Virus record (IMG/VR): IMGVR_UViG_3300020599_000004
Coordinates: 32,001-96,000 of that record
Reading direction: 5' to 3' (one strand)
Origin: a virus
DNA: 64,000 nucleotides
Shown: positions 335 through 14,708 of the stretch, piece after piece
Numbering within the stretch: the first letter of the stretch is position 1
Layout: each line of letters opens with the position of its first letter
Position numbers and translations under genes: made by a program
Notes under the pieces: model-generated
Told to the model about the DNA's origin: nothing
Database searches by the model: none
What the model saw: only the letters and a program-made list of their open reading frames with translations

Positions 335-1354
335 CTAATCCTGCTTGACGATACGGTCGAACATCTCTTTTATCCGGCAGTCGCTGCTTAAACCATCGGC
401 AATGAAGCTGTGATGGAGGAAGCAGCGCAGTCCGCACCGCCCGTAGTACTCACACGCTAGGCAGTTATATTTTTCAATGAATGCCATCTCTGCCTTAGCC
501 TTGGCCGCCAACCCTTCTGCCTCATCAAGGATGGCGTTCTTCCCTGCCTCAGACCAACAGGTCGACACGATATTGTCCTTGTTGACAATCTTCGTGGAGC
601 GACAGGTGGTCTCGTTGAACAGGTTTTCACGCCAATCCCTGACAGGCAGGGAGTTGGGGTATTTCTCATTCAGTAACAGGTAGAGGTCACTGATCATGTC
701 CTCGTCCGGCTGAATGTACTCGTACATCGTGGAGGGGATGTAGTGGTCAAAGTACACAGTGAAGTTCTCGCACATCCACTGCATCTCTTTACCTTCCTTC
801 CCCTCCAGGAAGGACTGGATGTTCTGCTTGGTGATCACGACGTTGACCGTGTCGATGTAGTTCTGCAACAGATGGAGATTGCGCAGGAACATCTGACGGT
901 TGTTTTTATCGAATCGACCCGCAGGGTCGTACGAGGTAGCCAGATCAATGATACGGCCTGGGGCGTACTCTCGCAGCAATGCAATCAGACGCATAACCCG
1001 GTTGATGTTCTCGTACGCAAGGTTGGTACCCCACACGAGTTTGACCTCGGTGAAGTGATCCAACACACGTTTACCGGCTTCCAGGTAATGGTCGAACATC
1101 CCATCTGGGATATCGTCACTGAAGAGTTCACCGCCGGTGAAGTTCACTACGTACGGCAAGTCTCCTGGGGTTGAGTCCGTCAGTCGCTTTACCTTGAGCA
1201 GGATTTCCTCACCGGACATCCCCACACGGGAATCGTGGTCCTGATGACAGAACGAGCAGCTCATGTTACACTTCTCGAACAGGATCAGGTGGGCTTCCTT
1301 GTACTTGCCCTTCTTCTGGGCCAGGATATCTACCACGGGAATGAGATCTACCAC
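335..1354 (-). CDS. radical SAM / SPASM-domain protein, 339 aa
   Basis: CNMSCSFC (Cx3Cx2C) at aa 29-36, FTGGELF motif, C-terminal C-x14-C and CLACEYYGRCGLRC (Cx2Cx5Cx3C). Confidence 0.92.
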   Translation of the reverse strand: MVDLIPVVDILAQKKGKYKEAHLILFEKCNMSCSFCHQDHDSRVGMSGEEILLKVKRLTDSTPGDLPYVVNFTGGELFSDDIPDGMFDHYLEAGKRVLDHFTEVKLVWGTNLAYENINRVMRLIALLREYAPGRIIDLATSYDPAGRFDKNNRQMFLRNLHLLQNYIDTVNVVITKQNIQSFLEGKEGKEMQWMCENFTVYFDHYIPSTMYEYIQPDEDMISDLYLLLNEKYPNSLPVRDWRENLFNETTCRSTKIVNKDNIVSTCWSEAGKNAILDEAEGLAAKAKAEMAFIEKYNCLACEYYGRCGLRCFLHHSFIADGLSSDCRIKEMFDRIVKQD

Positions 1355-2409
1355 GTCGACTCCTCCATCAGGTGCTTGAGTTCTTCTTCGTCTGCTCGCA
1401 AGGCGTAACGAATCAGGTTCTCGTCGTACTTGATGGCGTCCATGTGACCCAGCCGGAAACCGTCTTTGCCGTTATCGAAGATGAACCGCAGACGTTTCAG
1501 GCAGAGTTCAGGATCAGTCAAGTCGTCCGTGGATTCAAAGCAGGTCAACAGGTTACGGTTACGTTTCGCCGCGGGCTGATCCCCGCAGTCATCCAAAACC
1601 TTGATGATGCTCTTGACCAGATCGATCATCCACTCGTCTGGCATCTCATATTGGAGTACGTTGGGCAGACGCAACATGGGGTCCGTAAGGTGTCCCAGGT
1701 TCTGGCAGGCCTCAAAGGTGCTAGGCATGTCCAGCAGGGCGTCTAAATTGACGCCTGAGAGGTGCCAACGGGTATCGTCCATGATGACCCGCCCCCAATC
1801 GTCCATCGCGTCATGCGTGTTATTGAGGGCCGTACGGCGTTGCAGGTTCAGTAGGGTGTCAGGGATACTTCCCACAACGCCAAATGCCCGCAGTCGCATG
1901 ATCCGCCATTCCAGGGAAACCTCTTCAGGAGATTCCTCGTAGAGCTTGCGCAGAACAGGGATAATCGGCTCGTCAAAGGCATAAAGGCGCTCGACCACTT
2001 CACGCGTAATCGTCACATCGCGGGTATGGTCCGTGCGATTGTCATGAAGATTAATCGTGCTGGTGTCAAATGTCGCCTTGGCGCAAATGAAGAAGTACTT
2101 GAAATGCTCGTAGTCGATGCCAGGGAACAGGGCCTTTACCATGGCGGCAAAGAGCCGGGTGTAGGTGTCGTCATCAGCATAAATGAAAGTCTTCTGACCG
2201 AATGCAATGGCTCGGTCTATGGCATCACCAAATTCTTTCGGTGACATGGCATCCAGGCTGGTCGCATAACCCGCCTGGAAACCACGGACTCTCACCAGCG
2301 GGTGGTCCACATGTTGGAACCCGCTGTGCTTACTGATGTTGATCTGTGCAACTTCCACCTTGTTCCTGAACTCGGCTTCGACGTAGGTCTTACCGAAGAG
2401 ATGGAACAT
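1348..2409 (-). CDS. hypothetical protein of the radical SAM operon, 353 aa
   Basis: Long ORF overlapping both neighbours (7 and 20 nt); no motif recognised. Confidence 0.85.
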   Translation of the reverse strand: MFHLFGKTYVEAEFRNKVEVAQINISKHSGFQHVDHPLVRVRGFQAGYATSLDAMSPKEFGDAIDRAIAFGQKTFIYADDDTYTRLFAAMVKALFPGIDYEHFKYFFICAKATFDTSTINLHDNRTDHTRDVTITREVVERLYAFDEPIIPVLRKLYEESPEEVSLEWRIMRLRAFGVVGSIPDTLLNLQRRTALNNTHDAMDDWGRVIMDDTRWHLSGVNLDALLDMPSTFEACQNLGHLTDPMLRLPNVLQYEMPDEWMIDLVKSIIKVLDDCGDQPAAKRNRNLLTCFESTDDLTDPELCLKRLRFIFDNGKDGFRLGHMDAIKYDENLIRYALRADEEELKHLMEESTW

Positions 2410-3133
2410 TCAGGCTCCCTGCGATCTGGTCGTATCGACTGTTGTCGGCAGCTGCCGCGGCCAGGAACTGCTGCATGGCTTCTTCCCCTTCCATGGCGAT
2501 GAGGCTACCGATGAACAGGGGATTCTCCTTGACAGCAAAGTAGTAGAACAGGTTCTTGCCCGCGAAGATGTACTTGTTGAAGAGCACCTCGTTGTACGAG
2601 TACTCCTCCGGTCGTACGTCTTCCACCAGCAACGCGAAGAACGGATGCTTGATCAGGTTGACGTAGTTCAGTCCTGCCACACTGATGTTCTCGTCCGCGG
2701 GCAGAGCCTGGACGACTTCATCGAATTCACCCGTGGCATACAGGGCAAATAACGGCAGGTTGCGGATACGCTTCATCCAGGTGTCGAGGATGTCACGGTT
2801 TTCTGCAATGAACTCCGTCGGATCGAACGACAGCAGGGAAGGCTTACCCTGCATGTGCAGCAGGATCTGGACCACCGCATCGTCCAGATCCGGTGCCGTA
2901 GCGATCTGGGGCAGGTGCAGGTAATCCTTTACCAACGGCAGAGCGTCTTCGATGCTCTCCAGGTGCAGGCGGCACTTGATGTCCAAATTGGTCAGGTAGA
3001 CCAGCAGGGACTTGTTACGGAACTTGCTGTTCTTGTAGTCGATGACGAACTGGATGTCTTCTTTCTGTTTACGCACCAGGTCTTGCAGCGGAATCGGCGT
3101 AGTGGTAAACAGTACGGTGGTTTCAGTGTTCAT
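2390..3133 (-). CDS. hypothetical protein of the radical SAM operon, 247 aa
   Basis: ORF with GGGGTG RBS, 10 nt after the upstream stop; no motif recognised. Confidence 0.85.
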   Translation of the reverse strand: MNTETTVLFTTTPIPLQDLVRKQKEDIQFVIDYKNSKFRNKSLLVYLTNLDIKCRLHLESIEDALPLVKDYLHLPQIATAPDLDDAVVQILLHMQGKPSLLSFDPTEFIAENRDILDTWMKRIRNLPLFALYATGEFDEVVQALPADENISVAGLNYVNLIKHPFFALLVEDVRPEEYSYNEVLFNKYIFAGKNLFYYFAVKENPLFIGSLIAMEGEEAMQQFLAAAAADNSRYDQIAGSLNVPSLR

Positions 3134-3143
3134 GGTACACCCC

Positions 3144-3716
3144 TTAGCGACGACCGCGGTTACCGTGGCAGTTGTTGTGGCAGCTGTAGTGGCACACGGT
3201 GTTGGTCAGTGTGCCCACCACTGGACCACCCGCCAGGCTCCACCAGCGGTTGTACATGTTGTTGCAGAGATTGGAGACGTCAGCCTGCTCGACCGAGGTA
3301 CCTGCTGGGATCGCGCCCACCAGGGTGCCTGTGCCACCCACACCCGAGGAGAAGTAACCGATGGCATTGCCGTCGTATTGCGTAGTCGTCCAGGGTGCGG
3401 TGTTGTTGACGTTCTGCACAGGTGGGTTGTAGCCGTTGCCGTTGAAGTAGATCACGATGCGTTTGCGGCACAATACGCCAGAAATCGAGGCCACATACGA
3501 GACCGTATCGTTCACGGCTTGGGCACGGATGCTACCATTGCACCAATCCTGACCGGTGTGGGCACGTCCCAGCGGATTCGGGACATTACCGCCGAACCAA
3601 CCCGGCAGAGACCCACTGGGGTAGTTGTTAGCCCCCCAGGCTACCTGCGCGTTGATCTTGTCAATCAGGAGGCCGTTGAGCAGGTTTACGGCATCCACTT
3701 TACTGATGTTGGCCAT
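3144..3716 (-). CDS. 190-aa G/N/T-rich protein with C-terminal (CHxx)3-RGRR tail; candidate modification substrate
   Basis: Ends CHYSCHNNCHGNRGRR; starts 3 nt after the rSAM stop; substrate role is inference. Confidence 0.8.
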   Translation of the reverse strand: MANISKVDAVNLLNGLLIDKINAQVAWGANNYPSGSLPGWFGGNVPNPLGRAHTGQDWCNGSIRAQAVNDTVSYVASISGVLCRKRIVIYFNGNGYNPPVQNVNNTAPWTTTQYDGNAIGYFSSGVGGTGTLVGAIPAGTSVEQADVSNLCNNMYNRWWSLAGGPVVGTLTNTVCHYSCHNNCHGNRGRR

Positions 3717-3719
3717 ATG

Positions 3720-4751
3720 CTACACCTTGATAATCAAATTTGACTGGGCGCTGCGTCCCGAGAGATACCGAAGGGTATTCTTAAGTCCACCACACCGTCC
3801 GTTCTGCCAGGGTAACCGATGGCAGTCTCCACCACAAAGGTCAAAGACATCGCAATGTAAACAACCTGGCTTAAAGTTCAGCTCACAGGCGATCTCATTG
3901 ATGCGACCATCGGACGCCAGAAACTCCAGAGCCCCCTGGGACAAGTGGGCGTGCTTGTGTTCTGTCGCCATGTTAGGGCAACCACCTAACCAACCGTTGG
4001 AGTTGATCGTCACCAGGTTCTGCTCACAATTGCGGCAGTTGGTGTCGACTTTGACGATACCCAGTTCCAACTTCTGCTTGATGGTGTCTAACGTAGTGAT
4101 CTTGTAATTGGGCTGACGCTCGAAGTACCGCTTGTACAAGGCCAGATACCAGTCGTCTTGCTCTACGTTGTCCGGAAAGACGTCTGGGTTGCACTCGGCG
4201 TTGCCTCCTAAGGTAAGGCGCTCCAGCGCCACCTCATCGATCTCCAGTTGGTCCAGTTGGTCTAAGAACCAGTCTGGTGTGGAAGCCACTAGAGGTCGAG
4301 AAACAGATACCTTCAGGTGGATCGTAACCCCAGCACGTTTGAGCATGCCAAGGTTACGTTTCCACAGATCGACTTGTTTTTGGTTGGACCATCTGATCCA
4401 AGGGTCCCAACTGGTCCCGATGTGACCATCGAAATGAACCAGGATGGTGTCGATAATGGCATCAGTCAACTTGAATGTTAAGTTACTGTTGGCACACATG
4501 GAAACATTCGGGTTGCTCGCAAAGTGATCGATGAAGGCGTTGATCTTGGCGAGCGGTACCAGAAAAGGCTCACCCCCGTGAAACTCAATGTGGTATTGCT
4601 CATCTTCGGGGTATTGGGCCATAAAGTCTTTGACCCAGGAAGCCGTTGCCTCCGGGTCGAATTGGGTCTTATCCCCCTGCTTGCCATTGGTGAAGCAATG
4701 GTCACAGTTCAGGTTGCAAGTGCCCGTGGTCTTAACGTAGATCGTCTTCAT
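3720..4751 (-). CDS. radical SAM / SPASM-domain protein, about 343 aa
   Basis: CNLNCDHC, EFHGGEPF, C-x10-G-x4-C, CLHCDVFDLCGGDC; ATG overlaps the upstream TGA (TGATG). Confidence 0.93.
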   Translation of the reverse strand: MKTIYVKTTGTCNLNCDHCFTNGKQGDKTQFDPEATASWVKDFMAQYPEDEQYHIEFHGGEPFLVPLAKINAFIDHFASNPNVSMCANSNLTFKLTDAIIDTILVHFDGHIGTSWDPWIRWSNQKQVDLWKRNLGMLKRAGVTIHLKVSVSRPLVASTPDWFLDQLDQLEIDEVALERLTLGGNAECNPDVFPDNVEQDDWYLALYKRYFERQPNYKITTLDTIKQKLELGIVKVDTNCRNCEQNLVTINSNGWLGGCPNMATEHKHAHLSQGALEFLASDGRINEIACELNFKPGCLHCDVFDLCGGDCHRLPWQNGRCGGLKNTLRYLSGRSAQSNLIIKV

Positions 4752-5305
4752 CAAAGCTTGTCCACGATGAACTTCTCCAGACCGAAGGAGATCATCAGGG
4801 AATCCTCGTGGTTTATCGCCTGGTGCTTCGTGTTGGCCGGGATGAAGAGGGATTCGCCGGGCTTGAGGGTGTATTCACCGTCAAGGGTTCTGAAGGTCTT
4901 GTTGCCCTTCACCATCAAGACCAGGACATCGTCCGGGTCGGTGTGCATCGGGAAGGACAAGGATTCTGCGGGTGAGATGAACAGATGGGCGGTCACCGGA
5001 CCATCGTGTTCAAAGTAATGCTTCAGGAATTCGCAGCATGCGTACAATTCTGCGGAGAGTTTCTCGTAATGCTCGATCTTGATGGGGCAGTCGATGTGAG
5101 CAATCACATCGGAGCAGCTATGGGCTGTTTCACACCCTGCTTCTCCGAGGACGATCTTGACCATGCCTTCTTCGTAGGCATAGAGACTCTCCAGTACCTG
5201 ACGGTGGTGCATCTGCGCCTCAGTCAAGTGAAAGTTGGCAAAGTCTTGATGCTTTCTCACAGCACTGCGGTCCATTTCCTGTCTCCAAAAGTAGGGGTAG
5301 GCCAC
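4751..5305 (-). CDS. JmjC/cupin Fe(II)-2-oxoglutarate oxygenase, 184 aa
   Basis: H121-T-D123...H161 facial triad, K136, FPMHTDPDDVLVLMVKGNK resembling the ROXA/YcfD-type JmjC core. Confidence 0.82.
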   Translation of the reverse strand: MAYPYFWRQEMDRSAVRKHQDFANFHLTEAQMHHRQVLESLYAYEEGMVKIVLGEAGCETAHSCSDVIAHIDCPIKIEHYEKLSAELYACCEFLKHYFEHDGPVTAHLFISPAESLSFPMHTDPDDVLVLMVKGNKTFRTLDGEYTLKPGESLFIPANTKHQAINHEDSLMISFGLEKFIVDKL

Positions 5306-5367: not shown

Positions 5368-6291
5368 TCAGATAAAGTCCTTAGCCCTACGGCGAGCCGT
5401 GGATGCACTGATACCCAATGCTTCAGCTGCTGCACTCGCATGACTGTACGTCACCCCATCGATCACCAGAGGTTTTCTACTCCTGGCTATCGCCGCATCG
5501 ATCTTACCTCGCACACTGGCCTTATAGTCAGGGTCTGCCCACTTAGCCCGCATGGCTGCCCCATGCCGTTCTCTAAACCCCTCTATCTCCCATGTGGCAG
5601 CACCAGATTTCTTCTGGTTGGCAGCATACTCAGGATCTTCCCAGAGCCTCTTGGTGGCGCTGGATAACTTCTTCAGATACTCAGGGTCAGCTGCCAAGCG
5701 TTTCCCAGTTTCGACCCGTCGGGCTTTCACCGCAGGATCGGCGTAGATGTCCTTGATTTTGGATCGGAAGTCAGGGTCCTGCCATTGCGCCTTAGCTGCA
5801 TCGCTCAGCTTCTTACGGGTGTCTTCGTGAGCAGGGCGATACTCCTCGACCATGTGCCGCTGATTTACGCAGTAGGGGTCATTAAACAGCAGATCAACCA
5901 ATCGCTGCTCGACGGTCCTGGCTTCGCCTTCAGTGTTAGTGAAGAGGTAGATCACATCCGGCAACGCCCGTCTGCGGTCATACTCGCACTGGAGTTTCTG
6001 GTTGTAATGCTTGTTGGCCTTTAAGAAGTAAAGGTGCGTACGAGATCGTACCTGTAGGTAATAAGTGCTGCCGATGTAGAACTTACCACTGTTCCTGAAA
6101 TAGAGCACGTAAACCCCACATCGATCACCGGAGTACCTAATTCCACTGAGAGCAGGTCCCACTCCAGCAAACGCCTCAGGGTAGTTACAGTACTCCTCGA
6201 TCTCGTCATCCACCCAGCACCACAGCAGCCGGTGGAACCCGGCTGCTGTCCATTGCTTCAGATTTTCACCGCAATGCATCAGTTCTAACAT
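5368..6291 (-). CDS. free-standing GIY-YIG homing endonuclease (Seg-like), 307 aa
   Basis: GVYVLY...FYIGST, R-x3-H; W-x-DP helical repeats; C-terminal NUMOD1-like KPLVIDGVTY...AAEALGIS; GGAGA RBS. Confidence 0.88.
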   Translation of the reverse strand: MLELMHCGENLKQWTAAGFHRLLWCWVDDEIEEYCNYPEAFAGVGPALSGIRYSGDRCGVYVLYFRNSGKFYIGSTYYLQVRSRTHLYFLKANKHYNQKLQCEYDRRRALPDVIYLFTNTEGEARTVEQRLVDLLFNDPYCVNQRHMVEEYRPAHEDTRKKLSDAAKAQWQDPDFRSKIKDIYADPAVKARRVETGKRLAADPEYLKKLSSATKRLWEDPEYAANQKKSGAATWEIEGFRERHGAAMRAKWADPDYKASVRGKIDAAIARSRKPLVIDGVTYSHASAAAEALGISASTARRRAKDFI

Positions 6292-6362: not shown

Positions 6363-7811
6363 TTACTGCCACTGTGGTGGCCAGAAAGCGCGCCAACCAC
6401 CAGATACTGCCACGTACGCCACTCCACCAGTCACGTAGACGGAACCATCCACGCCGACAGTGTTCTTCGGCGTATAGCGCGCATCGTGGTCACCGCTGTT
6501 GACGTGGTCGTACATGCCACCTGCCGTGAGCAGGATCGCGTCGCTGTTCTGGTTACGCAGTCGCGTGATGGCATTGGGGATGTTCCCCAAACCGACCTGA
6601 GCCTTAGTGACGTTGTGCGGGTTGTTGGTGTTGTTGATGTGACTCGTCAGGGAATTACCCACCAACTGAGCGATGGCTTGAGCCGTACGCAGCGGGGTCA
6701 TGAAGCGATCGTTCGCTGTACCGGCTTGGGCTTCGGCTTGTGTTGCGGTCAGGAAGTTATCGACATTCCCCAAACCGACCTGAGCCTTGGTCGTCTGGTG
6801 GGGGTTGTTCATGTCCTGCAAGTGAGCTGTCAGCTGGTTACCCACAAGCTGGGTAATGGCCGTTTTGGTCAGAGCAGGGGTCATGAACTTGTCGGTGGCA
6901 GTCCCAGCCTGTGCATCGGCGGTGGTGGCTGTGGCGAAGTTATCCACGTTACCCAGGTTGACTTGGGCTTTGGTTACCTTGTGCGGATTGTTAAAGTCCG
7001 ACAAGTGAGGTGACAAGACACTGTTGGCAATGGCCGTTGCTGTCAGACCCGTCAAGTACGGCGTCATGTACTTGTTGTTGACTGTGGCTGCCTGTGCTTC
7101 AGCGTTGGTGGCGATGCCGAAGTTCTGTACCAGACCCAGTCCCACCTGAGCAGCCGTCACCTGGTGAGGGTTGGAAGTGTCATTGACGTGCTGGTTCAGC
7201 TGGCTCTGGAAGCCATCGATCTGTGCCTGCACCTGATCGATCAGGTACTGGAACTGTTGGCGCAGCTCATCGTGCGATGCGGCATCGCCCTGGAGGATGG
7301 CAACACGGATGTACTCCAGCTGCTCACCGATGTACTCCCAGCCGTAGGTATCCCCCAGATCGTGCAGGTGAGGGGTCGGCGGATAGAGGGCAGGTTTGCC
7401 GATGATGTCGCCCCAGTGCACGGGACGTTCATCCAGGTCCAGAGCCTCGAGCATCTCTTGCAGAGCGTAGACCGACCAGGAGAACTCACCCCCCACCACC
7501 TGATAGGTGATCAGGACTTCGTCACCCACGGTCTGGTCGGTAACGTAGACCACCGAGCAGACGTCCAGACCGGTACGAATGGAAGCTTCTTGGTAGGGTT
7601 GCAGCAGCAGGTACTGATCAACAGGTCTGAGGACTTCCCCAGTGTCGGCACGAGTGACCACAACTGAGTCCGTGTAGAAGGGACCACAGTTGGGCACGAA
7701 TGCCCGCTCTTTCGTCGAACCGATCGTGTGGGGTTCGTTGATGACAAGGTTAGTCGGAGACTTTCCCGTCAGATCAAGCGGGTATTTGAAAAGAAGAGGC
7801 TTGGTACCCAT
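6363..7811 (-). CDS. tail fibre-like virion protein, 482 aa
   Basis: Four NPHxxTxAQVxLG repeats; N-terminal YPLDLTGKSPTNLV shared with 14787..16967. Confidence 0.8.
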   Translation of the reverse strand: MGTKPLLFKYPLDLTGKSPTNLVINEPHTIGSTKERAFVPNCGPFYTDSVVVTRADTGEVLRPVDQYLLLQPYQEASIRTGLDVCSVVYVTDQTVGDEVLITYQVVGGEFSWSVYALQEMLEALDLDERPVHWGDIIGKPALYPPTPHLHDLGDTYGWEYIGEQLEYIRVAILQGDAASHDELRQQFQYLIDQVQAQIDGFQSQLNQHVNDTSNPHQVTAAQVGLGLVQNFGIATNAEAQAATVNNKYMTPYLTGLTATAIANSVLSPHLSDFNNPHKVTKAQVNLGNVDNFATATTADAQAGTATDKFMTPALTKTAITQLVGNQLTAHLQDMNNPHQTTKAQVGLGNVDNFLTATQAEAQAGTANDRFMTPLRTAQAIAQLVGNSLTSHINNTNNPHNVTKAQVGLGNIPNAITRLRNQNSDAILLTAGGMYDHVNSGDHDARYTPKNTVGVDGSVYVTGGVAYVAVSGGWRAFWPPQWQ

Positions 7812-8076: not shown

Positions 8077-10968
8077 TCAGGACTTCCATCCAGGTGCCAG
8101 AGTTGCCGGTTGAGTCGGATTACCCGAAGTCGCCGGGATAGCCATCCCCACCGGAGTCTGGGAGATCCGGTAGTTACCCAACCTCGATACCTTGTCGATC
8201 TGCATGGTGCTAATCTGCGTAGCACCCGTGATGATCTTACCGATGTACATCCGGGTATCGGACTCAGCCTGCTCAGTCGTGGTAATCTGATAGGCAGGCG
8301 TGCTACCGGACCAGTTCACGTAGACGTAGAAGGTGGAGTTGGATGGATCAGCTTGAACTTCGGTAAGATCGAAGGAAGCAGGCGCCAATTGGTCGTACTT
8401 ACCTTTCATCACCACTGGCGTGGGGTCGGTAAAGTACACCATCCATCCTGCGGGGACTTGTTGGGACATCACCACGATCTTATCGGCACGTGTCTTAGCA
8501 GGCCAGGTGATAAAGCTGGCTTTATCGGTGGCATTGAGTTGGAATTCCAACTTGGTGTAGGCATCGGTGTCTTCGTCACCGTTACGCAGAGTACCGATGC
8601 CTACACCCGGCAGTGCGAAGTAGTGAGCAGGGGTGTTGTCGTAGTCATACTCCAGGTAGGCAAACCCTTCTATGGAGCCGTCGGTGTTTACGAAGAGCTT
8701 AAAGCTGTTGATCAGTAATCCCGAGCCTGGTCGGATGATGGCGCCCACACCGGTGAGGGTGATGGCGTAACCACCTGCCATTTTCGTGTAGATGCTGCCA
8801 GCGACCTGACTGGAGTTGGCCAACGTCATGGATGTATTGGTGGTAACCACACTGGAGTATTTACCTGCCAGAGTGACCAGACCGATGGAGTTGATCGTCC
8901 CTGTACGGGCATTGACTGAACAGGTGAAGACAGCCGCGCACTGCATCCCATCGGGCTGGATGGCCCAGAGGATGAAGATACAAGGTGCGGCAGCGTCGAC
9001 AGGGACGATCAGCTGACCTGCGGTGGCTTTAGGGGTACCCGTATAACCTGCCGCTGTGTACGCAGCTGCCTTCGCATTCGCAAAAGCCGTAGCATCCACG
9101 GTGACCATAGAGCCCACAACTTGGTTCTCATCGATGCTGCCGGGTCGTGACAGGTTACCGTCCCAGAAGATGGTGCACCGATTAGCCGTGATGTTACCCG
9201 ACTGGTCGATTTCGGTCAGGAATATCCCGTCATTTACATGACCTCCCACATCCGTGGACAGCTTACGATATGCCTTGGGTGAGTAACCAGGGATATCCGC
9301 ACCGCTGAGTGACTTGTACATGAACGTGGGAGATTCCCCGTTGTCCTTGTACTTGCCCACTGCACGTTTTAGGGTACCGGTGCCTTTGGAGATGGCGGTT
9401 AGATAGCCATTGGGCAGCAGACTGACTGCCTGGAACGCGCTCATAAAGGGACTCGGACCAATGGCTGCGGTGTCCTTGGTCTCTGTGGAGCTGACAAGCC
9501 CATTAGCTGGGGTGACGTCGAAGGGCTTGGTAAAGTTGGCCAGTTTGTATCGAACGATGGAATAAGTACCACCCGATAAGTTGGATGGGTAGACCATCAA
9601 CACGGTGCCATCTTCGGCTATCAGGTAGTTCTTGCCGCCGTAGTAATAGCTAGAGTTGCTGATCCAGCGGTTACTGTCGGAGTATGCCTGGTTGGAAAGG
9701 ATCATACTCGTCTTGCTGGCATTGTAGGTGATCTCACACCCGCCTTGGTACGCAGCATCCACCACCGCCGTCTTTGCCACTGGGTCGATGACCAGGCTTA
9801 GCATCATCTCGGTGTTAGCAAAGCTTGTAGCATCCGGGTAGATTCGGTACAGACCAAACAACGCCGTACGCAGCTTCCCGGTGGCAGCATCGACCTCGGT
9901 GTGGGTCATGAGACCGTTACGACTGCTGCTGAAGAAGTCCGTCTTATAAGGACTGGCAGGGTGGTGGAACACGGCGTCATCTGCGACGTTCTCGGACGAC
10001 AGCATATCGGCCAGACGGATGTTGGTCTGAGCGACCTTGTTCGACCGAACACCCGTGACATCCCATCCCGTGACAGGATTCGCCGCCGTGATGGTCCCTG
10101 CGATAATGTCCGACACCGCAATGTTGGCCACGACCTGTACTTCAAATGGCGTCGATCCAGGGTAATTGCCCTGGCGACCATCCAGTGCCAGCAGTACATA
10201 GACCCGATCGCCAACCAGTACAGGCTCTGCCAGTCGCCAACCACCCGAGACAGTGGGATTGATTTCCGACAATGGGATCAGTGCACCAATGTGCTTACTG
10301 TCATCCAGGGTGCCATTGCACAGCGCCACGAACATTTGTCGGTTCGTGTTGGCGCCTTCGTCAGAGATTTCCCCTAACAGCACACCCTTGTTACCTGCAT
10401 AGACCACCCGAACCTGTTTACCATCCGGGACGAAGGCAGGGTGGTAACGGCGGTTGGTGTAGATAGCGTTGAGTGGCGCAGTCAGCGCATTCTTCATGTA
10501 CGTATAGTACGCTCCAATCGACGCGCCATCGGTGGCATTACGCAGCCAGGTAAGTGTGCCGTCGCGCTCCAGTACCAGCGGCTGGGACATGTAACCGGTG
10601 CCGCCTAGCGTTGTACCCGACTCGTACGATCCTCCTACGCCAATGGGCAGGTAATCCAGCGTACCAAAGCGCGAGAACGGCAGAATGCCCGACGGCAGTT
10701 TCTGTGCAAACAGCGCATTGGATTCGGTCTTGTTGTAAGCACCGAGGGTGGCAGCGGTAACGTTGTGGGGATTGTTCTTGTTGGCGATATGGACATCGGC
10801 CAGGTTCTTGGCCGCTGCCGGGTAACTGGCCGCAGCAGCGCCACCCAGCGCCTGCGCATCGTCCGCTATGGACGAGGACGCAGGCTTCTTGGTCATGACA
10901 GTCTTCACCGCCGCGAAGAAGTCATCCATGGCATCCTTTACGGCCTGGTACTGATCCAAAACACTCAT
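8077..10968 (-). CDS. tail/baseplate-associated virion protein, 963 aa
   Basis: Long ORF with one NPH motif; N- and C-termini paralogous to the 981-aa and 232-aa neighbours. Confidence 0.8.
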   Translation of the reverse strand: MSVLDQYQAVKDAMDDFFAAVKTVMTKKPASSSIADDAQALGGAAAASYPAAAKNLADVHIANKNNPHNVTAATLGAYNKTESNALFAQKLPSGILPFSRFGTLDYLPIGVGGSYESGTTLGGTGYMSQPLVLERDGTLTWLRNATDGASIGAYYTYMKNALTAPLNAIYTNRRYHPAFVPDGKQVRVVYAGNKGVLLGEISDEGANTNRQMFVALCNGTLDDSKHIGALIPLSEINPTVSGGWRLAEPVLVGDRVYVLLALDGRQGNYPGSTPFEVQVVANIAVSDIIAGTITAANPVTGWDVTGVRSNKVAQTNIRLADMLSSENVADDAVFHHPASPYKTDFFSSSRNGLMTHTEVDAATGKLRTALFGLYRIYPDATSFANTEMMLSLVIDPVAKTAVVDAAYQGGCEITYNASKTSMILSNQAYSDSNRWISNSSYYYGGKNYLIAEDGTVLMVYPSNLSGGTYSIVRYKLANFTKPFDVTPANGLVSSTETKDTAAIGPSPFMSAFQAVSLLPNGYLTAISKGTGTLKRAVGKYKDNGESPTFMYKSLSGADIPGYSPKAYRKLSTDVGGHVNDGIFLTEIDQSGNITANRCTIFWDGNLSRPGSIDENQVVGSMVTVDATAFANAKAAAYTAAGYTGTPKATAGQLIVPVDAAAPCIFILWAIQPDGMQCAAVFTCSVNARTGTINSIGLVTLAGKYSSVVTTNTSMTLANSSQVAGSIYTKMAGGYAITLTGVGAIIRPGSGLLINSFKLFVNTDGSIEGFAYLEYDYDNTPAHYFALPGVGIGTLRNGDEDTDAYTKLEFQLNATDKASFITWPAKTRADKIVVMSQQVPAGWMVYFTDPTPVVMKGKYDQLAPASFDLTEVQADPSNSTFYVYVNWSGSTPAYQITTTEQAESDTRMYIGKIITGATQISTMQIDKVSRLGNYRISQTPVGMAIPATSGNPTQPATLAPGWKS

Positions 10969-10989
10969 GCGTGTTCTCCATTAAAGTTA

Positions 10990-11019
10990 GCGGGGAGTTG
11001 TCTCCCCGCCTTTATGCCG
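10990..11019. terminator. hairpin plus TTTATGCCG element
   Basis: GCGGGGAG-ttgt-CTCCCCGC then CTTTATGCCG abutting the stop at 11020. Confidence 0.65.
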
Positions 11020-13965
11020 TTATGGGAACCAAGCCGGGTTCAGGCTGCCAGACTCAGTCGGCAGACCTTCGCTGATCGGCACGGCAGACCCACAGGGCGT
11101 AGAGCTGATGCGGAAGTTGTCGAACTTGGTGACCTTCTCCACGTTCAGAGCAGTGATGCTGTTTACCCCCGTGACGATGGTACCGATGAACAGAGAACTG
11201 TTGTCCTCGTTCTCGTAACTGGTCGTGATCTCGTAGGAGGCCACCCCATCCACCAAGTTGACGTAGAGGTAGAAAGTCGAGTTCGAGGGGTCAGGTTTGA
11301 CCGTGGTGAGATCGATCGAGCCGATGGGCAGACTGTAGTACGCTCCACCCAGGATCACGGGAGTGACCTCGGTGAAGTAGACAATCCAACCCTGAGCGAC
11401 CTCTTGGGAAATCAGCACAGGAGACTGATCCTCAGTGGTCAGGTAAGTCCAGGTACTGAGTTGGGCTTTGGTCTTGGCAAACCCGCGGAAGATCAACTTA
11501 GTGTTCGAGTCGATCAGGTAGATATCTCCCACCCCGTATCCCGGCATGGCCGAATAACGAGCACCGGTGTTAGCAGCCGAGGATGCGGTGACTCCACCCG
11601 TGATCGCCGATCCATCGGACTTGTTAATACCGAAGCGGTACTTGGCCATTTGCGAGCCACCCGGGTAGGTATACTGCCCGGAGGCACCACCTGCAATCAG
11701 GTAAGCATCGCTCGTCTCATAAATCCCGATGTTGAGGTTGCGGTATGCGTTCATCGCATCGAAAACAACACCCGTAATGCCAGTGGCCGTTCCAACACTG
11801 CCACTGGCCACGAGGGTTCCGGGGACCATGGACGTGACAGCACCGGAGCGTGCGTTTACCGTCACCAGCGCCACCGCACAGCGACGTTCATTGGTGGGGC
11901 TCAGGGCGTACGACACCGAGGCAAATGCAGGGACATTGGCGTCCTGCGGAATGACCAGGTCGATGATCGAGGTACCGATGACATTACTTACGCTGTGCCC
12001 TGCCAAGACGATGATTTGATCACGCAATGTTTCCAAGGCTGCCTGCGTGGCAGATATCGTCCCACTGGTGGTCAGGTCGTCATTGATCGTTACCGGTCGC
12101 GACAACGCCGAGGCACTGTTCGATAGCACCGATCCGCTGACTGCCTTGAACCCTGTGTCATCGGCGTGGACAATGGTCCCCGTCAGCAAGGTGCGGGTGG
12201 CAGAGGCCTGGGTGATATCCACTCGATCCGTGGTGGGTGCGAACCCGGGAATGCTCGGGTACGTAATCGACTTGTACGTGTAGTTCGGTGTGAGGGGATC
12301 ACCTGGGTCTCTCAGACTGAACGATACCATGCCGTAGCTGTTACTGTTATTCCGGGTCATGGTCACTGCTTTGTTGTTGGGCAGGAATCGCAGTCCGTCG
12401 AATGCATCCCCAGCCGCCGAACCAAAACCCAGAACCACGTTCAGCGCTTCCCTGGTTTCCGGTGCTTTGTTGACGATGGGACCTTGGATAACATCGAATG
12501 CACTCGTGAACGTGTTCCACTTCCCGCGGTAGAGCGATTCGCTGCTGGCAGGGCCATAGGGCAGTCGACTGGTGAAAATCTGCCCATTGTTGGTGATGTA
12601 TGCCCGATACGAAATGTCCACCGAGGTGTAGTTTTCCAAGAACGAGCCGTTGCCTGCACCTACGATGCTGCCACCATAAACCAGTGTCCCGTCACCCGCT
12701 GGGCTCAGCGTTACCGGCGTCTGACCGGCGTCCAGGGTCACAGTCAGATCGCTCATGTTGACAGTAAAGCTGTAAGCGATCTTATTGGACTGTAAGCCCT
12801 TACCAGATCCACTGTACCGTGGATCTTGGTAGACCAGTACCCTCAGTTTGGATTGGTCAGCGTTGAAAATAGACAGGGTCATGACCCGACCCGATCCGCC
12901 GATATGGCGCTGACCGTCCCACCAACCACTTTGGTCACCGTTCACATGCTGGATAAGTGCAGGGGTGGTGGTGCCTTGAGCCTCGGAAACAGCTGCCAGA
13001 CGAATCTTACCCGTACTGTAAGTTGCCCCCAAGAAGCCCGTGCACTGACCTACTGCGCTCTGAGTCGGCGTGACTTTTGACCCACTGCCCAATGCAGAGA
13101 TCGGGATTTCATAGAGCGTGAAGTCCAGCGGTTCTGCGATGGTCGGACCACTCGGGCTGGCGTACTGGTTGTAGAGGATGTACACCTTCGAGTTTGCGAG
13201 GATAACTTCCGACTTGTTGAGGATGTCATCCCACGTGGGACCGTCCAGGAGGATACAGGTCGCATGCTTACTGTCGTCCAAAGTACCTTTGGTGGGGGTG
13301 ATAAAGATATCCCCCAGTGTCCCAGCCGCATTTTGGAAACGCCCTGCCAGGATACCTTGACCACCTTGGTACAGGTAAGCCACACTGGAGCCTGCCGGCA
13401 GGAAAGGTGGCAGATACCGGCGCGTCGTCATGACGATCTTCTTACCCGTCAATCCATTGACAGCGTCTGGCACGTAACCGTAGTACGCACTCTGACTGGA
13501 GCCATCCGTGCCATTACGCAGCAGGGCCAGGTTGCCGTTGGCTTCCAACTGCATGGAGAACATCTCCCGCAGGTTGACGCCATTAGGATTACCGGTAGCC
13601 CGTACGATTGACGCCCCTTCGAAGCTCCCGGCTACCCCTGCCGGCAGATAGTCCAGGCTACCGTAACGCGACAGCGGGATTACACCGGCCGGTACACAGG
13701 CCGCAGCAGAACTGTCGATTGCACTGATCGGGAATGCGTTGACTTGGTCGGGCGTCAAGTCATGGGGGTTGGCTTTGTTGTTGCTGTGCGTAGCCATATA
13801 CGCATCAGCCGTGGTCTTCATTTGGGTGGGCGTTTGACCGCCCAGCGTCGGTGCGCTATCAGCCAGCGCCACCGACGCGGGTTTCTTGGCCAGGATAGCT
13901 TTCACTTTCGCCGAGTAGTTGGCGAAGCTATCCATCAGATTCTGAAGTTCGGTTGCAATGCTCAT
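11020..13965 (-). CDS. tail/baseplate-associated virion protein, 981 aa
   Basis: Paralog of 8077..10968 (KKPAS, NPH, PLSRYGSLDYLP, C-terminal FDNFRISSTP). Confidence 0.8.
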   Translation of the reverse strand: MSIATELQNLMDSFANYSAKVKAILAKKPASVALADSAPTLGGQTPTQMKTTADAYMATHSNNKANPHDLTPDQVNAFPISAIDSSAAACVPAGVIPLSRYGSLDYLPAGVAGSFEGASIVRATGNPNGVNLREMFSMQLEANGNLALLRNGTDGSSQSAYYGYVPDAVNGLTGKKIVMTTRRYLPPFLPAGSSVAYLYQGGQGILAGRFQNAAGTLGDIFITPTKGTLDDSKHATCILLDGPTWDDILNKSEVILANSKVYILYNQYASPSGPTIAEPLDFTLYEIPISALGSGSKVTPTQSAVGQCTGFLGATYSTGKIRLAAVSEAQGTTTPALIQHVNGDQSGWWDGQRHIGGSGRVMTLSIFNADQSKLRVLVYQDPRYSGSGKGLQSNKIAYSFTVNMSDLTVTLDAGQTPVTLSPAGDGTLVYGGSIVGAGNGSFLENYTSVDISYRAYITNNGQIFTSRLPYGPASSESLYRGKWNTFTSAFDVIQGPIVNKAPETREALNVVLGFGSAAGDAFDGLRFLPNNKAVTMTRNNSNSYGMVSFSLRDPGDPLTPNYTYKSITYPSIPGFAPTTDRVDITQASATRTLLTGTIVHADDTGFKAVSGSVLSNSASALSRPVTINDDLTTSGTISATQAALETLRDQIIVLAGHSVSNVIGTSIIDLVIPQDANVPAFASVSYALSPTNERRCAVALVTVNARSGAVTSMVPGTLVASGSVGTATGITGVVFDAMNAYRNLNIGIYETSDAYLIAGGASGQYTYPGGSQMAKYRFGINKSDGSAITGGVTASSAANTGARYSAMPGYGVGDIYLIDSNTKLIFRGFAKTKAQLSTWTYLTTEDQSPVLISQEVAQGWIVYFTEVTPVILGGAYYSLPIGSIDLTTVKPDPSNSTFYLYVNLVDGVASYEITTSYENEDNSSLFIGTIVTGVNSITALNVEKVTKFDNFRISSTPCGSAVPISEGLPTESGSLNPAWFP

Positions 13966-14009
13966 GACGGTTTCCAGTCAGTTAGAGACAATCCTTCACA
14001 TCAACCGTG

Positions 14010-14708
14010 TCAGGTCCATGCCAAGGTACCCGACCCGGAGGGGTAGCCAGTGCTTACCGGGATCGAACTGCCTTTGGCAGTGGTGGACAGTCGGTAGTTG
14101 TCCAAACGGATTATCTCCGTTGGAACATCCTGGGTGAGAATGCCGCCGGACGAGCACTGGAACTGGCCAATGTACATGGTCACATCCGACTCTGCGATGG
14201 GTGATGTGGAGGGGATGGATACGTACGTGAACTCTCCATCTTTCAACTGGGCGTAAACGCAATAGGTTTTGCTGCCTGGTGAGGGGTCTCCCGCACTAAG
14301 GTCCAGAGCCGTTTGCGGGACAGCATAAACCTTTCCTGAGATGATGGCCGTGGTGGCGCCGAAAGTGATGACGAATGTCGAGGTGTTACCCGTTAGCGTA
14401 GTTCGTTTCCAGTAGGATACTGGCAGGATACCTGAGGGCACCAGATTCGCTAGGATGTTATCCATGGCTGCGCTGTCGTAGATACCCAGCAGCGCAGCCG
14501 TGTCATTGTGCGGGTTGGTCGCACCGACGTGGGCATCGTAGGAAGCCCTTAGGTTGGCAGTTAGTTGAGTGCGGGTTACCCCTGCTACCTGCGATGCGTC
14601 GTCCGCACTGAAGGCTCCAGAGCGTTTGCGCTGGAAAGCGCGTTTGATCTCAGCCGTGAAATTCTGGAGGCCCTGCGTGAATTGGGCAATCTCGTTGGAG
14701 AAATCCAT
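14010..14708 (-). CDS. tail-associated virion protein, 232 aa (short paralog)
   Basis: Shares N-terminal helix/NPH and C-terminal LDNYRLS...GSSIP modules with the two long paralogs. Confidence 0.78.
   Translation of the reverse strand: MDFSNEIAQFTQGLQNFTAEIKRAFQRKRSGAFSADDASQVAGVTRTQLTANLRASYDAHVGATNPHNDTAALLGIYDSAAMDNILANLVPSGILPVSYWKRTTLTGNTSTFVITFGATTAIISGKVYAVPQTALDLSAGDPSPGSKTYCVYAQLKDGEFTYVSIPSTSPIAESDVTMYIGQFQCSSGGILTQDVPTEIIRLDNYRLSTTAKGSSIPVSTGYPSGSGTLAWT

What the first reader, a model, noticed from the sequence alone, without database searches (positions are those of the whole stretch)
3144..3716. 190-aa protein ending CHYSCHNNCHGNRGRR: putative core region on an unusually large leader or structural scaffold
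Seen: codons 175-190 (3147-3194) encode three consecutive C-H-x-x units and a basic RGRR end; the rest is G/N/T/W-rich and beta-like, with only three other Cys. The first unit contains His-Tyr-Ser (an H-x-S triplet). Inference: the i, i+4, i+8 Cys/His spacing suits thioether or His-crosslink formation by SPASM enzymes, or a Cu/Zn-binding site. At 190 aa it is far longer than typical RiPP precursors, suggesting a folded protein with a modified tail.
Basis: partly seen in the sequence, partly recalled or inferred. Interest (0 to 1): 0.85.

Follow-up and report, generated by a model that had tools for sequence, protein, structure and literature searches.

The report
Radical-SAM-linked Cys-His tail on phage protein
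A small folded phage protein ends in an almost unchanging (Cys-His-x-Ser)x3-Arg-Gly-Arg-Arg tail and always sits among radical-SAM enzyme genes next to tail-fibre genes, which points to an unstudied chemical finishing step for a virus-particle protein.

Summary
ORF 3144-3716(-) encodes 190 aa ending CHYSCHNNCHGNRGRR.

The tail is the most conserved part of the family: a 60-residue C-terminal profile finds 698 clusters at 50% identity, always at the very C-terminus. 161 of 162 proteins examined have exactly three CHxx units followed by R-x-RR-stop. The fourth residue of each unit is Ser or Asn, and synonymous codons are freely mixed.

All 78 viral loci and 25 cellular loci with a tailed ORF hold radical-SAM (rSAM) genes within the DNA fetched (up to 10 kb each side for the viral loci). 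In 58 of 78 an rSAM/SPASM gene lies directly upstream.

AlphaFold gives a confident alpha/beta body with no known fold and a floppy tail.

The cassette (cupin, 4-6 rSAM, 2OG oxygenases, three orphan proteins) sits behind fibre genes in three settings:
- phiKZ-like jumbo phages (DT01, RSL2, FLC6, S13);
- T4-like phages (Atu_ph07, marine contigs);
- Bdellovibrionota chromosomes.

A variant sits in pilus operons of Pseudomonas megaplasmids.

Atu_ph07 gp170, a family member, is in the published virion proteome; the neighbouring enzymes are not.

Most likely (0.6) the tail of a virion protein is modified by the rSAM enzymes. The chemistry is unknown. I found no paper describing it. This scan has already noted the same system many times on other DNA.

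The parts
3144..3716 (-). X: 190-aa protein with an alpha/beta body and a C-terminal Cys-His tail
   Evidence: 17 close homologues, 698 clusters by C-terminal profile
3147..3194 (-). Tail CHYS-CHNN-CHGN-RGRR (residues 175-190), the candidate modification site
   Evidence: invariant C, H and R columns; fixed three units in 161 of 162 proteins; protein-level selection; low pLDDT
3720..4754 (-). rSAM_A: radical SAM/SPASM enzyme directly upstream of X (3-nt gap)
   Evidence: Pfam Radical_SAM and Fer4_12; phrog_1802; weak full-length NCBIfam hits to PapB and DynA; CX3CX2C plus seven or more C-terminal Cys; closest solved structures 8vpo and anSME 4k36-39; directly upstream of X in 58 of 78 viral loci
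4751..5305 (-). Cupin/JmjC-type Fe(II) oxygenase, first gene of the cassette
   Evidence: PF08007 JmjC_2, PF07883 Cupin_2; present in 61 loci
2390..3133 (-). p20767: 247-aa orphan protein that follows X in most loci
   Evidence: phrog_20767; 69 loci; AlphaFold pLDDT 86, no fold match
1348..2409 (-). h353: 353-aa orphan protein of the cassette
   Evidence: no family hit; 34 loci
335..1354 (-). rSAM_B: second radical SAM/SPASM enzyme; its orthogroup is present in every lineage
6363..7811 (-). 482-aa fibre-like virion protein; its orthologue lies immediately upstream of the cupin gene in the 27 jumbo-type loci where it was found
   Evidence: phrog_2163 and tail-fibre PHROGs; synteny
8077..13965 (-). 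Two large paralogous fibre genes (963 and 981 aa) in the same transcription direction
   Evidence: context only

Best explanation
X is a structural, probably fibre-associated, virion protein. Its exposed C-terminal tail, (C-H-x-S/N)x3-R-G-R-R, is post-translationally modified inside the infected cell by the co-encoded radical SAM/SPASM enzymes, with help from the cupin and 2OG oxygenases. The repeating four-residue unit is the unit of modification. The two most likely reactions are a Cys-to-position-4 thioether (ranthionine or sactionine type) and a His-to-position-4 three-residue cyclophane (triceptide type). The product would be a stapled, basic tail. Shown here: the motif, its conservation, its genetic linkage to rSAM genes and fibre genes, the folded body with a flexible tail, and virion presence of one family member. 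Inferred: that the tail is the substrate, which residues react, and what the finished tail does.
For: 1. The tail is invariant while the bodies diverge to different N-terminal domains of 124-364 aa.
2. 78 of 78 viral and 25 of 25 cellular loci with a tailed ORF contain rSAM genes; rSAM_A lies directly upstream in 58 of 78. Orthogroups B, C and D travel with X in every lineage.
3. Rare variants expand the unit to 14-16 copies, and only the last copy is followed by RGRR. That is typical of repeat-motif rSAM substrates.
4. Position 4 is Ser or Asn in phages and Ala in the megaplasmid variant. This fits an acceptor carbon better than a metal ligand.
5. The rSAMs are full-length SPASM types. Their best matches, though weak, are peptide or protein maturases: PapB, YhhB, FxsB, DynA, anSME, CteB.
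6. The tail has low pLDDT and extends from a confident fold.
7. Atu_ph07 gp170 has the same tail and follows rSAM gp171 (mass 31.89 kDa). It is in the virion proteome with 8 peptides and 35% coverage, most abundant in the top gel band. The neighbouring enzymes are not listed (PMC6102473 Table S5).
8. There is precedent for a folded protein with HxS repeats matured by paired rSAMs: HxsA (PMC13128918).
Against: There is no mass-spectrometric or biochemical evidence of any modification. All rSAM scores lie far below every curated family cut-off. Four to twelve rSAMs seem too many for 16 residues, so some may act on fibres or other targets. The tandem small-X marine group lacks rSAM_A, the cupin and p20767 within the DNA fetched. 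The Atu_ph07 gel buffer names no reducing agent, so the high-mass band could reflect ordinary disulfides.
Confidence: 0.6

Rival explanations
1. The tail is an unmodified metal or Fe-S binding site. It could be a structural Zn, Cu or Fe site in an oligomeric fibre protein, or a carrier that supplies iron or clusters to the many Fe-S enzymes encoded next to it.
For: The tail offers three Cys and three His at i, i+4, i+8 on a flexible C-terminus. The cassette encodes six proteins with two or three cluster motifs each. Marine T4-like phages with many rSAMs also carry Fe-S assembly genes (PMC5332604). Expanded 14-16 unit tails resemble His/Cys-rich metallochaperone tails (my own knowledge).
Against: Metallochaperone tails vary in length and composition. 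Here 161 of 162 proteins have exactly three units, plus a conserved Ser/Asn at position 4 and an invariant R-x-RR. Position 4 is not a typical ligand and becomes Ala in the plasmid variant. A family member is a virion component, which does not fit an intracellular cluster donor.
Confidence: 0.17
2. The tail is an assembly or docking tag, for example a disulfide or electrostatic anchor that fixes X to the fibre or baseplate. The rSAM enzymes would then act on other substrates, such as the fibres themselves or a small molecule.
For: X lies directly behind fibre genes in three lineages. Atu_ph07 gp170 runs mostly in the top gel band under a buffer with no reductant named. The number of rSAMs exceeds what 16 residues seem to need.
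Against: The strict linkage is between X and the rSAMs, not between the rSAMs and any one fibre family. Fibre types differ completely between jumbo, marine, Bdellovibrionota and pilus contexts, while X and the rSAM B, C and D orthogroups persist. No other conserved candidate motif was seen.
Confidence: 0.13
3. X is a precursor. Its tail is cut off and released as a small modified peptide or cofactor, making it a true RiPP with a giant leader.
For: It has a C-terminal core-like repeat next to SPASM maturases. Tandem precursor-like gene pairs occur in marine phages.
Against: No protease or exporter was recognised in the cassette. The body is a conserved fold of its own. The full-size protein is found in virions. 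The RGRR end is at the extreme C-terminus, with no follower peptide.
Confidence: 0.05

Closest known systems
HXS antiphage system (HxsA matured by rSAM HxsB/HxsC with HxsD; Li et al. 2026, PMC13128918)
   Same: The substrate is a folded protein, not a short peptide. It carries several H-x-S units in a basic context and is encoded beside two or more rSAM enzymes. A site-specific covalent change (+8 Da) was mapped to an S-H-R-S-S unit.
   Different: X has no family match to HxsA, and the rSAMs score far below the HxsB cut-off. X has an invariant Cys before each His, a fixed C-terminal position and an RGRR end. It has no peptidoglycan-binding domain and no N-terminal processing signal. It is a phage virion or fibre-module protein, not a bacterial defence effector.
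Triceptides: three-residue cyclophane RiPPs made by rSAM/SPASM enzymes (HaaB on H-A-A, HtkB His-C2 to Lys-C-beta; PMC11499958)
   Same: H-x-S/N (phage) and H-G-A (plasmid variant) fit the aromatic-X-X3 unit. The units are repeated. Several weak NCBIfam hits are to cyclophane synthases (YhhB, FxsB, AmcB, GrrM).
   Different: Scores are 25-50 bits against cut-offs of 310-445. The substrate is a 190-aa folded protein. The invariant Cys has no counterpart in triceptide motifs.
Ranthipeptides/SCIFF (PapB, CteB): Cys-to-side-chain thioethers
   Same: It has a C-terminal Cys-rich core with Cys every fourth residue. PapB is the best full-length NCBIfam match of rSAM_A, and CteB is among the PDB hits.
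   Different: The score is 51 bits against a cut-off of 340. The usual acceptor residues (Asp, Glu, Thr) are absent. The precursor is not a short peptide with an N-terminal leader.
Anaerobic sulfatase-maturating enzyme (anSME, PDB 4K36-4K39)
   Same: It is an rSAM/SPASM enzyme acting on a Cys or Ser of a folded protein. rSAM_A and rSAM_C align with it over their full length.
   Different: The tail lacks the C/S-x-P/A-x-R sulfatase motif. Scores are 37-40 bits against a cut-off of 349.

Membership tests
HXS system | Substrate matches the HxsA family model (TIGR03979) | tested here: not met
   No NCBIfam hit for X or five diverse relatives, even at E<=10
HXS system | Paired rSAMs reach the HxsB/HxsC equivalog scores | tested here: not met
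   rSAM_A scores 27 bits against TIGR03978, cut-off 370. rSAM_B, rSAM_C and rSAM_D show no Hxs hit
HXS system | Repeated His-x-Ser units in a protein encoded beside two or more rSAM genes | tested here: met
   Position 4 of each unit is Ser in 110-146 of 161 proteins, otherwise mostly Asn; rSAM linkage
Triceptides (3-residue cyclophane RiPPs) | Maturase belongs to a curated cyclophane-synthase family (YhhB, FxsB, AmcB, GrrM/OscB) | tested here: not met
   Best score is 50 bits against a cut-off of 445; 25 bits against 310-425 for rSAM_D
Triceptides (3-residue cyclophane RiPPs) | Aromatic-X-X3 motif in the core | tested here: met
   H-x-[S/N] three times; H-G-A in the plasmid variant
Triceptides (3-residue cyclophane RiPPs) | C-C crosslink between the ring and C-beta of X3 | not testable with these tools
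   Needs MS/MS and NMR of the matured tail
Ranthipeptide/SCIFF | PapB/CteB-type maturase at equivalog score | tested here: not met
   PapB scores 51 bits against a cut-off of 340
Ranthipeptide/SCIFF | Short precursor with an N-terminal leader and a Cys-rich C-terminal core | tested here: inconclusive
   A Cys-rich C-terminal core is present, but the 'leader' is a 174-residue folded domain
anSME substrates | C/S-x-P/A-x-R motif | tested here: not met
   The tail reads C-H-x-S; there is no Pro or Ala at +2
Pfam PF27846 (named tSAM_targ_Cxxx_rpt in the ESM Atlas output) | Match to the family model | not testable with these tools
   The family is absent from the local Pfam copy. It was seen only as a label on 19% of one neighbouring Atlas cluster

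The most novel reading that the evidence does not exclude
The rSAM cassette installs a new type of covalent staple (thioether and/or His cyclophane) on the tail of a surface-appendage protein. The same finishing chemistry would then be shared by phage tail-fibre modules, fibre-like adhesin loci of predatory Bdellovibrionota and pilus operons of Pseudomonas megaplasmids. That would make it a general, undescribed way of hardening or arming the host-contact tip of bacterial and viral appendages, possibly by covalently linking X into a high-mass complex.
Probability: 0.3. Interest if true: 0.85.

Novelty: new variant of a known kind. Interest (0 to 1): 0.72.

Why it matters
To my knowledge (not searched for specifically), no virion protein is known to be modified by radical-SAM chemistry. 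This cassette is widespread: 698 protein clusters at 50% identity, in jumbo phages of Pseudomonas, Ralstonia, Burkholderia and Agrobacterium, in marine T4-like phages, in predatory bacteria and on drug-resistance-type megaplasmids. It always sits in host-contact modules. Working it out would add a new protein modification. It would explain why large phages carry up to a dozen rSAM genes. It may also bear on host range and particle stability. Cultured, tractable phages (DT01, RSL2, Atu_ph07) make it directly testable.

Tried and rejected
- **Complex prediction.** Complex prediction of rSAM_A with X, three 4Fe-4S clusters and SAM gave no answer (score 0.02). It counts neither for nor against binding.
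- **Fold searches for X.** Foldseek PDB found nothing at E<=0.001. VIA wide gave a best Z of 4.1. BFVD found only uncharacterised phage relatives.
- **Fold searches for p20767.** No match.
- **Profile searches against PDB sequences.** X, p20767, h150 and h353 gave nothing significant.
- **Family libraries.** Pfam and NCBIfam at E<=10 found nothing for X and five variants. PF27846 could not be tested. The second ESM Atlas search gave no usable hit.
- **tblastn of marine X variants against cultured phages.** Two variants gave no match. The third (L035) matched only the tail of RSL2-like phages.
- **RP12/RP31 lead.** These phages have a different rSAM cluster behind YomR-like genes, with a 125-aa ORF. 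I could not show that this ORF is an X relative, and it is not in the RP31 virion list. I dropped the lead.
- **Literature.** Ten searches found only passing mentions of 'radical SAM genes' in these phages. None describes the tail or the cassette.
- **Prophage explanation for the Bdellovibrionota copies.** I considered this and rejected it for G001, where the flanks are housekeeping genes.

Full report
**1. The observation**

The minus-strand ORF 3144-3716 encodes 190 residues ending CHYSCHNNCHGNRGRR-stop. Residues 175-190 map to 3147-3194. There are three further Cys, at 59, 83 and 151. The description is correct, except that the body is alpha/beta rather than mainly beta.

**2. Where the window comes from**

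The window is part of an IMG/VR virus record of 127,830 bp, estimated at 47% complete. An identical protein also occurs on a 276,567-bp contig. The only close cultured relative is the phiKZ-like Pseudomonas jumbo phage pPa_SNUABM_DT01. Its PA10_00065 is 29% identical to X and lies in the same gene order.

**3. The gene neighbourhood**

Reading along the minus strand, the order is as follows.
- A 482-aa fibre-like virion protein (6363-7811).
- An inserted GIY-YIG homing endonuclease.
- A cupin/JmjC oxygenase (4751-5305).
- rSAM_A (3720-4754).
- X.
- p20767 (2390-3133).
- h353 (1348-2409).
- rSAM_B (335-1354).

Beyond the window edge (locus L007) the chain continues:
- rSAM_C and rSAM_D;
- two degenerate rSAM paralogues (h339, h351);
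- h150 (phrog_20737);
- two 2OG-Fe(II) oxygenases.

All six rSAM-like proteins keep CX3CX2C and a C-terminal CxxCxxxxxC block. A, B and C have full SPASM-like Cys sets.

**4. Is the tail the conserved part?**

Yes.
- Among 17 homologues plus DT01, the invariant columns are concentrated in N-T-x-C-H-x-x-C-H-x-x-C-H-x-x-R-G-R-R.
- With 39 sequences, only C, H and R of the tail stay invariant.
- A scan of viral contigs returned 104 relatives, of which 80 were fetched. The proteins range from 124 to 364 aa with different N-terminal parts, and all end in the tail. Some loci carry tandem pairs of 124-140-aa genes.
- A 60-position C-terminal profile, run against 1.84 billion representative proteins, found 698 clusters at E<=1e-3 and 236 at E<=1e-10. 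In all 150 hits listed the match ends at the last residue.
- Of 162 sequences, 161 have exactly three CHxx units before R-x-RR (RGRR in 142). Position 4 is Ser in 110-146 and Asn in 14-46, depending on the unit.
- Exceptions are few. One protein has an extra Gly before RGRR. One has CNCN as its third unit. Rare jumbo-phage variants have 14-16 units.
- The 103 distinct DNA versions mix synonymous codons freely, so selection acts on the protein.

**5. Does it always neighbour rSAM genes?**

Yes, in the DNA fetched (up to 10 kb each side for the viral loci; 8-kb or shorter stretches for the cellular ones).
- 78 of 78 viral loci with a tailed ORF contain rSAM-like genes (median 4, maximum 8).
- In 58 of 78 the rSAM_A orthologue lies directly upstream.
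- 25 of 25 loci from cellular genome assemblies also contain them.
- A tree of 115 rSAM-like proteins resolves orthogroups A, B, C, D and h339/h351. Groups B, C and D accompany X in every lineage. Group A, the cupin and p20767 are missing from the fetched DNA of the tandem small-X marine group, which instead has four or five h339/h351 paralogues.

**6. Link to host-contact appendages**

- In the 27 jumbo-type loci where a 482-aa fibre-like orthologue was found, it immediately precedes the cupin gene.
- In marine T4-like loci, X or cupin-rSAM_A-X starts a few bases after tail-fibre genes of up to 3156 aa. This agrees with reports of rSAM cassettes in the host-recognition cluster of pelagimyophages.
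- A DNA pattern for the tail hit 27 stretches in 185,579 species genomes, about 17 of them in Bdellovibrionota. All loci that contain a complete tailed ORF carry the cassette.
- On a 1.29-Mb Halobacteriovoraceae contig, the cassette is flanked by housekeeping genes. It lies next to a 413-aa protein with a Peptidase_S74 intramolecular-chaperone domain, a hallmark of fibre and spike proteins.
- Ten of 301 sampled Bdellovibrionota genomes have X.
- Following a lead from earlier notes of this scan, I found full-length rSAM_A homologues on 137 plasmids, 130 of them from Pseudomonas.
- On plasmid NZ_CP018048, pilus or type II secretion-like genes are followed by three rSAM genes. Directly after the rSAM_A homologue comes a 124-aa protein with a signal peptide that ends CHTA-CHGA-CHGA-CHGS-RGWR.

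**7. Structure**

AlphaFold2 with 39 sequences gives pLDDT 87.4 and pTM 0.81. The elements are helices 6-22, 65-81 and 144-163 and strands 82-94, 108-122 and 166-175. The last block of residues (181-190) averages pLDDT 51, and DSSP assigns no secondary structure after residue 175. No solved structure resembles the body. Only uncharacterised phage proteins match, including the DT01 homologue and Atu_ph07 gp170. p20767 also folds confidently without any known relative.

**8. Virion evidence**

Atu_ph07 gp170 lies directly after rSAM gp171 and ends CHSS-CHAS-CHNS-RSRR. It has 296 aa and a computed mass of 31.89 kDa, which matches the published figure exactly. It shares the C-terminal 41 residues with X at E=2e-7.

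In the published virion proteome it has 8 unique peptides and 35% coverage. It was found in gel bands 1-9 and was most abundant in band 1, the top of the gel. Other proteins of about 30 kDa peak in bands 7-8. The neighbouring rSAMs, gp169 and gp172 are not listed (PMC6102473, Table S5). The loading buffer as described contains no reductant. The high-mass species may therefore be disulfide-linked, otherwise covalent, or an SDS-stable oligomer.

**9. Most likely mechanism**

X is a virion protein of the fibre module. Its flexible tail is modified in the cell by the rSAM/SPASM enzymes, and possibly hydroxylated by the cupin and 2OG oxygenases. The four-residue unit is the unit of chemistry. This follows because the unit can be multiplied without RGRR, and because position 4 is a small residue with a C-beta hydrogen (Ser, Asn or Ala).

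Two candidate reactions fit: a Cys-to-position-4 thioether, or a His-to-position-4 cyclophane. The data cannot separate them. I put 0.6 on 'the tail is an rSAM substrate'. The rivals are a metal or Fe-S site (0.17), a docking tag with the rSAMs acting elsewhere (0.13), and a released peptide (0.05).

**10. Comparison with known systems**

The closest analogue in logic is the HXS defence system: a folded protein with HxS repeats, matured by two rSAMs, with a +8 Da change on S-H-R-S-S. The chemistry candidates are the triceptides, the ranthipeptides/SCIFF and anSME. Membership in each of these families was tested and not met. An ESM Atlas neighbour cluster carries a Pfam 38.1 label suggesting 'rSAM target, Cxxx repeat'. 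Curators may therefore already have a model for such tails, but I could not test this.

**11. Novelty and verdict**

I found no paper that describes the tail or the cassette. Genome papers only list 'radical SAM genes'. For that reason I keep 'virion protein' tied to Atu_ph07 gp170 only, and I leave the chemistry open.

I rate it a new variant of a known kind, namely rSAM-matured repeat-motif proteins. It is widespread and testable in cultured phages.

Noticed in passing
window 5368-6291 (-): A GIY-YIG homing endonuclease (I-TevI-like DNA-binding end) is inserted between the fibre-like gene and the cupin gene. In related jumbo-phage loci the fibre-like gene abuts the cupin gene directly.
   Followed up: partly
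window 8077-14708 (-): Three extra fibre paralogues (963, 981 and 232 aa) lie between the 809-aa and 482-aa structural genes. In DT01 and most related contigs those two genes are adjacent. This looks like a lineage-specific expansion of receptor-binding genes.
   Followed up: partly
L010 9992-10696; L031 10001-10684: Two jumbo-phage contigs carry X variants with 16 and 14 CHxx units, interrupted by VPV or VV spacers, before a single RGRR end.
   Followed up: yes
L104 (Dysosmobacter segnis BX15, 4.3-kb contig): A short contig of an isolate assembly carries a cassette fragment whose X tail region closely matches the jumbo-phage contig L031. This is probably phage DNA or contamination in that assembly.
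   Followed up: no
L122 (P. aeruginosa DN1 plasmid NZ_CP018048) 10132-10506: A 124-aa exported protein ending (CHxA)3-CHGS-RGWR lies directly after an rSAM_A homologue, inside a pilus or type II secretion-like operon. 137 plasmids carry the rSAM homologue.
   Followed up: partly
L116/L117 (Halobacteriovoraceae, 1.29-Mb contig): This is a chromosomal copy of the cassette. It sits next to a Peptidase_S74 fibre-like gene and is flanked by serine dehydratase, an Mrp/NUBPL ATPase, an SLT transglycosylase and a PBP1 gene.
   Followed up: partly
PMC6102473 Table S5 (Atu_ph07 gp170): The 31.9-kDa tailed protein is most abundant in the top SDS-PAGE band, whereas other proteins of about 30 kDa peak in bands 7-8.
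   Followed up: partly
L008 9992-10531: One relative has CNCN instead of CHxx as its third unit, the only His loss seen in about 80 loci.
   Followed up: no
L082 about 10001-10948: One locus keeps rSAM_A, p20767, h353 and rSAM_C, but a 315-aa ORF without the tail sits where X should be.
   Followed up: no
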